NCBI GenBank assembly: GCA_964016885.1
Contig: OZ024741.1
Location: forward strand, 176,886,001 to 176,950,000
Origin: Eledone cirrhosa
Lineage: Eukaryota
DNA length: 64,000 nt
Reading direction: 5' to 3'
Part shown: piece by piece, positions 39,653 through 40,830 of the stretch
Layout: each line of letters starts with the position of its first letter
Numbering within the stretch: position 1 is the stretch's first letter
The notes under the pieces: generated by a model
The model's database searches: none
The model's input: only the letters and a program-made list of their open reading frames with translations
What the model was told of the DNA's origin: nothing
Made by a program: the position numbers and the translations under genes

Positions 39653-40319
39653 ATAACTATATCGTATGTAACCGACTAAGTTGAAAGAAAGTGATATATG
39701 TATGGGTCTTAACCTACGAAGTTTGACAATTCTAGGACTAGGATGAAGATAAATCTATCACTAAATGTGTTAATACATAAATCATATAAAACAACTGGGA
39801 TTGCGAAAATCTCCAAAATATATGACAAGGTTACGAAGCAGATCAAGAATCAGGTGTTAGGGACGTGACACAGAAATCTTCGATATTTAATATTAAATAA
39901 TGATTAATAATAATATTTATTTAATTATATGTCTAGCGGCGTATACGCGTTTAGATTTGTATTTTTGTCTTTGAAATTATACATACATGCATACATACAT
40001 ATATATATATAATATATATATATATATATATATAAATATATATATATATATATATATATATATATATATATATATATATATATATATATATATATATATA
40101 TATATATATATATGGGTGTGTGTGTGTATATATATGTATATATATATATATATATATATATATATATATATATATATATATATATATATGAATGTATATA
40201 TAGTGTATTTTGCAATACACTGTATGCTTAATTAAAAGCATTTCGAAGACCTTACGCTATTGTTTTAGAGTAGTGACAGTCTCACTTACTTTAAATGTTC
40301 AGCAAACAAGGGGAGATAA

Positions 40320-40364
40320 AGCTGACAGAGCTCTGTTTCGTACTCTTTGGTACTTATCAAAGCT
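40320..40364 (-). ncRNA. Type I hammerhead, inverted copy
   Basis: AGCU-UUGAUAA-GUAC(CAAAGA)GUAC-GAAA-CAGAGCUCUG-UC-AGCU. Confidence 0.88.
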
Positions 40365-40617
40365 AAGTACTCCACATGTCTGCTGAAAATCATGAATGTT
40401 TGATTCTTAACGAATTTTATTAATAATCAGGAACTGATTATACAGAGCGGTTGCAGGTCAAGCAGAAATTGATATATGTATCGTTATTTCAGAGCACCAA
40501 TTCTAATTTTCAATTTCTGCTCGAACTGCAATCGCTCTGTATAATCAGTTCCTGATTATTACTAGAACTCTATAAGAATCAAACATTCATGATTTTCAGC
40601 AGACAGGTGGTGTACTT

Positions 40618-40662
40618 AGCTTTGATAAGTACCAAAACGTACGAAACAGAGCTCTGTCAGCT
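40618..40662 (+). ncRNA. Type I hammerhead (U3-A8 variant, GUC site)
   Basis: AGCU-UUGAUAA-GUAC(CAAAAC)GUAC-GAAA-CAGAGCUCUG-UC-AGCU; helix III is a 10-nt palindrome. Confidence 0.9.
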
Positions 40663-40830
40663 TTATCTCCCCTTGCTTGCTGAACATTTAAAGTAAGTGA
40701 GACTTTCACTAGTCTAAAACAATAGCGTAAGGTCTTCGAAATGCTTTTAATTAAGCATACAGTGTATTGCAAAATACACTATATATACATTCATATATAT
40801 ATATCGCTATTTCACAGCACCAATTCTAAT

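What the first reader, a model, noticed from the sequence alone, without database searches (positions are those of the whole stretch)
40188..40830. 640-bp palindromic cassette with intact hammerheads on both strands and a duplicated 28-nt tail
Architecture is inverted arm, tail, forward arm, tail, inside (TA)n. The two ribozymes differ only in the helix II loop, although the arms have diverged elsewhere. A transcript of either strand would contain one ribozyme and could fold into ~285 bp of dsRNA, a possible ADAR or Dicer substrate (inference). The tail recalls the short 3' tail described for Penelope.
Basis: partly seen in the sequence, partly recalled or inferred. Interest (0 to 1): 0.7.

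Follow-up and report, generated by a model that had tools for sequence, protein, structure and literature searches.

The report
Two-armed Penelope-type retrozyme insertion
This mirror-image cassette is one ageing copy of a 323-base repeat with a predicted self-cutting RNA motif that occurs thousands of times in this animal genome, and its shape is likely a by-product of how Penelope-type jumping genes paste such RNAs in, not a purpose-built double-stranded-RNA gene.

Summary
The architecture is real: two 295-nt inverted arms, a duplicated tail, (TA)n flanks, and a type I hammerhead motif on each strand differing only in loop II. It is not unique. It is one insertion of a dispersed and tandem 323-nt non-coding repeat (over 3,000 exact hits genome-wide), a non-LTR retrozyme. 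Partial tandem, inverted 5' arm and a tail on one end only are the published Penelope-like (PLE) insertion footprint; 33 of 37 classifiable two-armed copies show it. The hammerhead covaries across the family, but at this locus its arm-to-arm conservation is no more than chance (p=0.23) and all 15 arm differences are private. Arms and tandem units of one insertion were alike at birth, fitting one circular template read from both sides of a break (inferred). 5' ends pile up at the predicted cut site (21 insertions versus 1 and 2 at neighbouring positions), a hint of cleavage in vivo that a palindrome control weakens. No A-to-I signature, no RNA data and no autonomous partner were found. The scan already noted this architecture in other repeat families of the same genome.

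The parts
39991..40202 (.). Left (TA)n microsatellite, the insertion target; merges with the TA tract at the outer end of the inverted arm
40178..40472 (-). Inverted arm: monomer positions 3-297, ending at the internal TA tract (tail-less end)
40320..40364 (-). Type I hammerhead motif, loop II CAAAGA, predicted cut after 40324 on the minus strand
40472..40507 (+). 5'-truncated upstream tandem unit (monomer 288-323): the 'first tail', i.e. the forward arm running past one full monomer
40508..40830 (+). Full 323-nt retrozyme monomer (forward arm)
40618..40662 (+). Type I hammerhead motif, U3-A8 core, palindromic stem III (40646-40657), predicted cut after C40658
40740..40782 (+). Two predicted hairpins upstream of the TA tract, in the 3' part shared with a sister family; candidate recognition region for the mobilising enzyme (inference)
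40803..40830 (+). PLE-type tail between the two preferred 3' ends (monomer ~297 and 323)
40829..41204 (.). Right (TA)n microsatellite

Best explanation
The cassette is one insertion of a high-copy, non-coding 323-nt repeat with a predicted hammerhead (a non-LTR retrozyme), likely copied into a (TA)n tract by the enzyme of a Penelope-like element working from both sides of the target break on what was probably one circular RNA. Shown: the family, its tandem and two-armed copies, the two fixed 3' ends about 26 nt apart, (TA)n flanks, hammerhead covariation, shared origin of the two arms and later private mutation. Inferred: multimeric transcripts are cut by dimeric hammerheads and ligated to 323-nt circles; a PLE RT/GIY-YIG protein cuts both strands of AT-rich DNA; one end primes at the tail end (here giving 323 to 1 and on to 288, more than one turn) and the other at the TA tract (297 to 3); the two cDNAs are joined head to head. 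The palindrome, the doubled tail and the two opposed ribozymes are by-products, and this copy is most likely inert.
For: Copy number: 3,105 exact tail 23-mers and 3,244 body 27-mers, reversed-pattern controls 0. Architecture: in 74 body-sampled clusters on the first ~96 Mb of contig C1, 42 are two-armed; of 37 with both ends classifiable, 33 have one TA-tract end and one tail end, 2 and 2 the other kinds (p=1e-6; one duplicated pair, L052/L055, is counted twice). This is the PLE pattern in PMC8557442 and PMC3846280 (passages); PMC11167929 shows in vitro that a PLE protein cuts and extends both strands and starts at two RNA sites that bound the tail. Hammerhead, 143 units from 78 loci: U3-A8 121 / C3-G8 16; stem II pairs TA 80 / CG 49, CG 103 / TA 22, GC 110 / AT 14; stem III GC 113 / AT 12. 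One template per insertion: arms share 45 of 252 rare alleles versus 92 of 6,643 between insertions, and differ at family-polymorphic sites at 0.008 versus 0.045 per site; tandem units diverge as much as arms (284 of 5,242 versus 409 of 7,027; rho 0.67, 31 insertions) whereas the two long arrays are heterogeneous (13% pairwise). 87 of 110 arms run through the cut site, 45 of 110 exceed one monomer. 5' ends exactly at the cut: 23 arms in 21 insertions (30 hits, 7 dropped as internal variants) versus 1 and 2 true junctions two bases either side; in L220/L221 both arms start at the cut, linked by an A/T run. RT plus GIY-YIG ORFs with hammerhead-bearing repeats exist in the genome.
Against: No autonomous PLE carrying this tail or monomer was found in 40 GIY-YIG loci, the family loci or 30 sister-family loci. 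The other AGCT palindrome (monomer 111) also collects 5' ends: 6 true junctions of 11 hits, 3 of them joined to an arm that starts at the cut; matched counts 11 versus 3 (p=0.06) or 11 versus 6 (p=0.34), so part of the cut-site peak may be annealing at a palindrome. A young homogeneous multimer would give the same within-insertion identity as a circle. The Rfam scores are far below the gathering threshold, the monomer's active fold is not favoured (-5.9 versus -11.3 kcal/mol), and the 2026 preprint found cleavage in only 1 of 9 Xenopus dimers tested. Covariation counts are of related sequences, not independent events. Target-site duplications cannot be read inside (TA)n.
Confidence: 0.8

Rival explanations
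1. Same family and same PLE mobilisation, but the template is an uncut linear multimer transcript from a young partial tandem; the ribozyme matters little, and the inverted arm arises by fold-back self-priming or a template switch rather than by priming from both target ends.
For: PMC11167929: hammerhead mutants do not change insertion in vitro and no reads end at the cut site. PMC3846280 reads head-to-head PLE palindromes as self-priming. Several junctions are near-perfect fold-backs (L034, L108, L172). Most arms run through the cut site (87 of 110).
Against: Fold-back does not by itself explain why the outer ends of the two arms are the two fixed start sites in 33 of 37 cases. Existing long arrays are too heterogeneous to give the within-insertion identity seen. 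Core and stem covariation imply selection on the fold.
Confidence: 0.3
2. The unit is the solo pLTR of an autonomous PLE, and the cassette is a heavily 5'-truncated PLE insertion (inverted pLTR plus direct pLTR plus tail).
For: Opposite-strand hammerhead pairs 100-700 bp apart were attributed to truncated PLEs in PMC4209133. A true pLTR palindrome of this kind lies in the window at 22781-23351 and matches the repeats around a 938-aa RT/GIY-YIG ORF.
Against: The tail is followed by monomer position 1 or by TA, not by an ORF; arrays of 11 and 16 full units exist; no PLE ORF is attached in register to any family locus or sister locus.
Confidence: 0.08
3. The locus is a domesticated bidirectional hairpin-RNA gene whose two ribozymes are kept by selection.
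For: A read-through transcript would fold into ~290 bp of duplex; both motifs are intact, which holds for only 17 of 75 two-armed copies.
Against: Ribozyme conservation between arms is at chance; arm divergence (15 of 277, 5.4%) is typical for two-armed copies; all 15 differences are private alleles at 4% or less in the family; the motif is predicted to be sequestered in the full transcript.
Confidence: 0.05

Closest known systems
Metazoan non-LTR retrozymes (Cervera and de la Pena 2020, PMC7229834, passages read; review PMC7761336, passages; Li, Clavereau and Pollet 2026, 10.64898/2026.07.22.740005, parts 1-3 of 5)
   Same: Non-coding ~300-nt low-GC monomer with a type I hammerhead, in monomers, dimers and long tandems, thousands of copies, co-existing with PLEs.
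   Different: Expression and circles untested here. The passages read do not describe two-armed copies with a one-sided tail or fixed 3' ends for retrozymes ('inverted' and 'opposite' occur 0 times in PMC7229834); this family shows them plainly.
EN+ Penelope-like element insertions (Craig et al. 2021, PMC8557442; Arkhipova et al. 2013, PMC3846280; passages read)
   Same: Partial tandem, inverted 5'-truncated copy, tail at only one end, (TA)n target bias, hammerhead in the repeat.
   Different: No RT/GIY-YIG ORF; the whole element is the repeat; the tail is 26-28 nt rather than 30-40 nt; no parent element found.
Anolis Poseidon (PAc) two-site internal initiation (Frangieh et al. 2024, PMC11167929, parts 1-2 of 4)
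   Same: Two adjacent start sites bounding the tail; AT-rich target; both target strands extended.
   Different: Here one of the two sites is a TA tract with homology to the target; the two sites are used one per arm in 33 of 37 cases; some 5' ends fall on the ribozyme cut, which PAc RNA-seq did not show.
PLE minimal hammerheads with U3-A8 core and opposite-strand pairs (Cervera and de la Pena 2014, PMC4209133, parts 1-2 of 4)
   Same: U3-A8 covariant core, short helix I, palindromic helix III, pairs on opposite strands 100-700 bp apart.
   Different: Helix II is 4 bp without the extra nucleotide after A9, and helix III is longer (12-nt palindrome).

Membership tests
Type I hammerhead ribozyme | Conserved core with 3-8 pair, three helices, NUH cut site | tested here: met
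   Core letters kept in 135-141 of 143 units; 3-8 pair and helix II/III covariation; weak Rfam HH9 hits below gathering score
Type I hammerhead ribozyme | Self-cleavage | tested here: inconclusive
   No biochemistry possible. Genomic 5' ends are enriched at the cut versus neighbours (21 vs 1 and 2 insertions) but not significantly versus another AGCT palindrome
Non-LTR retrozyme | Non-coding 150-400-nt monomer with type I hammerhead in tandem repeats | tested here: met
   323-nt unit; dimers to arrays of 16 full units
Non-LTR retrozyme | High copy number, dispersed | tested here: met
   3,105 and 3,244 exact pattern hits
Non-LTR retrozyme | Expressed as linear and circular monomer RNA | not testable with these tools
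   No RNA holder listed; only indirect support from within-insertion identity
PLE-mobilised non-autonomous element | Partial tandem plus inverted 5' copy plus one-sided tail | tested here: met
   33 of 37 classifiable two-armed copies
PLE-mobilised non-autonomous element | Sequence similarity to the pLTR or 3' signal of an autonomous PLE | tested here: inconclusive
   None in 40 of 150 scored GIY-YIG loci or 30 sister loci; only a shared terminal TTCTAAT with one Neptune-like pLTR tail
Autonomous Penelope-like element | ORF with RT and GIY-YIG endonuclease | tested here: not met
   No ORF in the cassette other than TA-repeat frames; none attached in family loci
Locus-specific hairpin RNA gene / ADAR or Dicer substrate | Selection on the locus, expression, editing or small RNAs | tested here: inconclusive
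   Selection not seen; no sense-strand A>G excess in family copies; expression not testable

The most novel reading that the evidence does not exclude
The family is a genomic record of the full retrozyme cycle: the hammerhead cuts in vivo (5' ends at the cut site), cut monomers circularise, and a dimeric Penelope-type enzyme reverse-transcribes one circle from both ends of a double-strand break, each end assigned to a different one of the two start sites, which would explain the one-sided PLE tail.
Probability: 0.4. Interest if true: 0.62.

Novelty: new member of a known kind. Interest (0 to 1): 0.36.

Why it matters
The locus itself is ordinary repeat DNA. The family matters modestly: the papers read propose, but do not show, that PLEs mobilise animal retrozymes and that PLE-type hammerheads cut in vivo. 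Here a protein-less retrozyme carries the full PLE insertion footprint, one arm takes the tail and the other does not in 33 of 37 cases, and 5' ends cluster at the predicted cut. That gives a cheap, countable test of both ideas. Such insertions also scatter many long inverted repeats through the genome, a possible bulk source of dsRNA if they are transcribed (untested).

Tried and rejected
Expression: no RNA holder listed; three runs of one study, kind unknown, held as contigs; laid on the locus they cover only the repeat part and show nothing locus-specific. Intron idea (GTAAGT at 40694, TTTCAG in the tail): the spliced-junction pattern had 0 hits with 1 mismatch. A-to-I scars: variants shared by all units of an insertion were A>G 9, T>C 17; single-unit variants A>G 117, T>C 95 (p=0.37); no sense-strand excess. 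Excess mutation near the palindrome centre: flat, 0.044-0.069 per site by distance. A peak of 5' ends at monomer 208-209 seen in the local sample was not borne out genome-wide (7 hits versus 4 at 213, neither verified). The control at position 148 failed because a stem III variant matches it (579 hits). Autonomous partner: not found. The ORF at 35270-36100 has no Pfam hit and no real similarity to the L151 protein. Rfam miRNA hits are TA-repeat artefacts. Literature: five searches listed no paper on a cephalopod retrozyme family or on genomic 5' ends at a PLE-type hammerhead cut; the library is incomplete and no supplements were read, which could hold such examples. Look-up of earlier notes by sequence gave nothing related.

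Full report
1. Observation. The sequence at 40178-40830 is as described. Arms 40178-40472 and 40510-40804 are 295 nt, 95% complementary and 37 nt apart; 40472-40507 and 40795-40830 are a 36-nt direct repeat; (TA)n arrays flank both sides. The arms differ at 15 of 293 columns, two of them in hammerhead loop II and none elsewhere in the motif. The forward motif (40618-40662) has stem I AGCT/AGCT, a U3-A8 core, a 4-bp stem II, GAAA, a 12-nt palindromic stem III and a predicted cut after C40658. Rfam finds HH9 on both strands below its threshold (22.3 and 20.2 bits versus 52) and nothing at gathering level.

2. What it is. A search of the 3.0-Gb own genome with the forward arm gave 1,635 candidates, of which 40 were scored. 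Exact patterns gave 3,105 tail hits and 3,244 body hits, with 0 for the reversed controls. Mapped on a 323-nt monomer (position 1 = window 40508), the cassette reads minus[3-297], plus[288-323], plus[1-323]. The 'duplicated tail' is thus the 5'-truncated end of a second tandem unit. Other copies are 5'-truncated monomers, partial tandems, arrays of up to 16 full units compared, and two-armed forms, mostly inside (TA)n. 3' ends fall at the internal TA tract (about 297) or at the tail end (323). In the sample chosen by a tail-free body pattern (74 clusters, first ~96 Mb of C1), 42 are two-armed; of the 37 with both ends classifiable, 33 have one end of each kind, 2 two short ends and 2 two tail ends (binomial p=1e-6; one duplicated pair counted twice; 5 two-armed clusters had an unclassifiable end and were left out). 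Over all 145 clusters the count is 57, 2 and 3. Both hammerheads are intact in 17 of 75 two-armed copies.

3. The hammerhead is selected in the family, not at this locus. Across 143 units from 78 loci the core letters are kept in 135-141, the 3-8 pair flips between U-A (121) and C-G (16), and stems II and III show double changes (TA 80 / CG 49; CG 103 / TA 22; GC 110 / AT 14; GC 113 / AT 12); 78 of 143 pass a strict intactness filter. These are related sequences, so the counts are not independent events. At this locus all 15 arm differences are alleles at 4% or less in the family (9 in the forward arm, 6 in the inverted one), while both arms share a 1% allele at monomer 20: one template, then private mutation. 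Arm divergence here (5.4%) is typical of two-armed copies (5.1% pooled).

4. Template. Within insertions, arms share 45 of 252 rare alleles versus 92 of 6,643 between insertions and differ at polymorphic sites six times less often. Tandem neighbours diverge as much as opposite arms (5.4% versus 5.8%, rho 0.67 over 31 insertions), so all units were alike at birth, whereas the two long arrays are 13% heterogeneous. 87 of 110 arms cross the cut site and 45 of 110 exceed one monomer. A circle fits best; a young homogeneous multimer is not excluded.

5. Cleavage in vivo. A pattern for arms starting exactly at the cut (monomer 152) gave 30 hits; 7 were internal variants and dropped, leaving 23 arms in 21 insertions. 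The same design at 150 and 154 gave 3 and 4 hits, with 1 and 2 true junctions (p=1e-5 and 5e-4); 208 and 213 gave 7 and 4 unverified hits; the 148 control failed. Because 152-155 is the palindrome AGCT, I tested the other AGCT at 111: 11 hits, 6 true junctions, 3 of which join an arm starting at 152. Under a matched filter (counted by hand) this is 11 versus 3 (p=0.06) or 11 versus 6 (p=0.34). The peak is therefore suggestive only; L220/L221, with both arms starting at 152 across an A/T run, is hard to explain by annealing. Folding predicts an inactive monomer fold (-11.3 versus -5.9 kcal/mol), a favourable intermolecular helix III (-27.1 versus -22.6, crude), and no stem II in a + strand transcript of the whole cassette; on either strand the antisense arm is made first (sequence).

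6. Partner. The genome has many GIY-YIG matches (10,595 candidates, 150 scored). In 40 fetched loci there are RT plus GIY-YIG ORFs, some between hammerhead-bearing repeats (L151), but none carries this monomer as its repeat. A sister family with nearly the same tail also lacks an attached PLE ORF in 30 loci. PLE mobilisation rests on the insertion footprint, not on an identified parent.

7. Comparison with print. PMC8557442 (passages) and PMC3846280 (passages) describe partial tandems, an inverted 5'-truncated copy and a 30-40-bp tail at one end as typical of PLEs. PMC11167929 (parts 1-2 of 4) shows both target strands cut and extended and two RT start sites bounding the tail, and finds the ribozyme dispensable in vitro. 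PMC4209133 (parts 1-2 of 4) reports the U3-A8 core, opposite-strand pairs 100-700 bp apart, and proposes circles. PMC7229834 and PMC7761336 (passages) define non-LTR retrozymes and name PLEs as likely mobilisers; the 2026 preprint (parts 1-3 of 5) links them by pLTR similarity. Five searches listed nothing on this family.

8. Earlier notes. One search shows that the scan has recorded the same two-armed retrozyme architecture in 310-, 311-, 422- and 467-nt families of this genome. I had the end rule before that look-up; the notes agree but are not independent support. One note reports editing scars and cut-unit ends in its family; in this family I found no sense-strand A>G excess and a partial signal for cut ends.

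9. Verdict. Real feature, known kind: a new family member of animal non-LTR retrozymes with a PLE insertion footprint. The palindrome with two ribozymes is a by-product of insertion, and nothing marks this copy as functional. Interest 0.36; the boldest reading (in vivo cutting, circle, two-ended priming with one start site per end) has about 0.4 probability.

Noticed in passing
window 22781-22930 (-) and 23139-23351 (+): Second hammerhead palindrome (U3-A8 core, motifs at 22894 and 23175). The arms are 94-97% identical to the repeats flanking a 938-aa RT/GIY-YIG ORF with a CxxxxCxxC linker (L151; Neptune/Nematis-like by PMC8557442). Only the right arm carries a ~63-nt extension, which ends in TTCTAAT like the tail of the 323-mer.
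   Followed up: partly
window 22051-22480 and 22933-23140: Two-armed insertion of a sister family with nearly the same tail (72-78% identical to the 323-mer's 3' part; relatives 67-73% over the whole monomer, ~317-335-nt units, 1,685 candidates). Its two arms are only ~70% alike, and part of it is repeated at 96% between the arms of the pLTR palindrome.
   Followed up: partly
L073:1284-1910: Tandem of four 163-nt deletion derivatives (monomer 208-323 plus 1-51) that lack the hammerhead yet end at the tail in (TA)n.
   Followed up: no
L095:1955-7457; L192:1-4200: Long arrays (16 and 11 full units compared) are mosaic, 13% pairwise divergent, and carry family-level polymorphisms, unlike short insertions; they may grow by serial insertion or recombination.
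   Followed up: partly
L220/L221 (G000:C10:13520556-13520616): Both arms begin exactly at the predicted ribozyme cut and are joined by a ~29-nt A/T run, as if non-templated letters were added at the template's 5' end.
   Followed up: partly
window 35270-37530: Broken RT-like element with an inverted copy of its 5' flank at ~37640-37700; its N-terminal motif recalls Naiad/Hydra-type PLE proteins (recalled, not shown; no Pfam hit).
   Followed up: no
window 13190-13537 and 14372-14882: Tandem ~180-200-nt SINE-like units that resemble octopus SINEs (recalled, not tested).
   Followed up: no
window 49608-52903 (+) and 62208-62774 (-): Broken LINE with an AP-endonuclease domain (PF03372, E 6e-11) and RT-like frames.
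   Followed up: no
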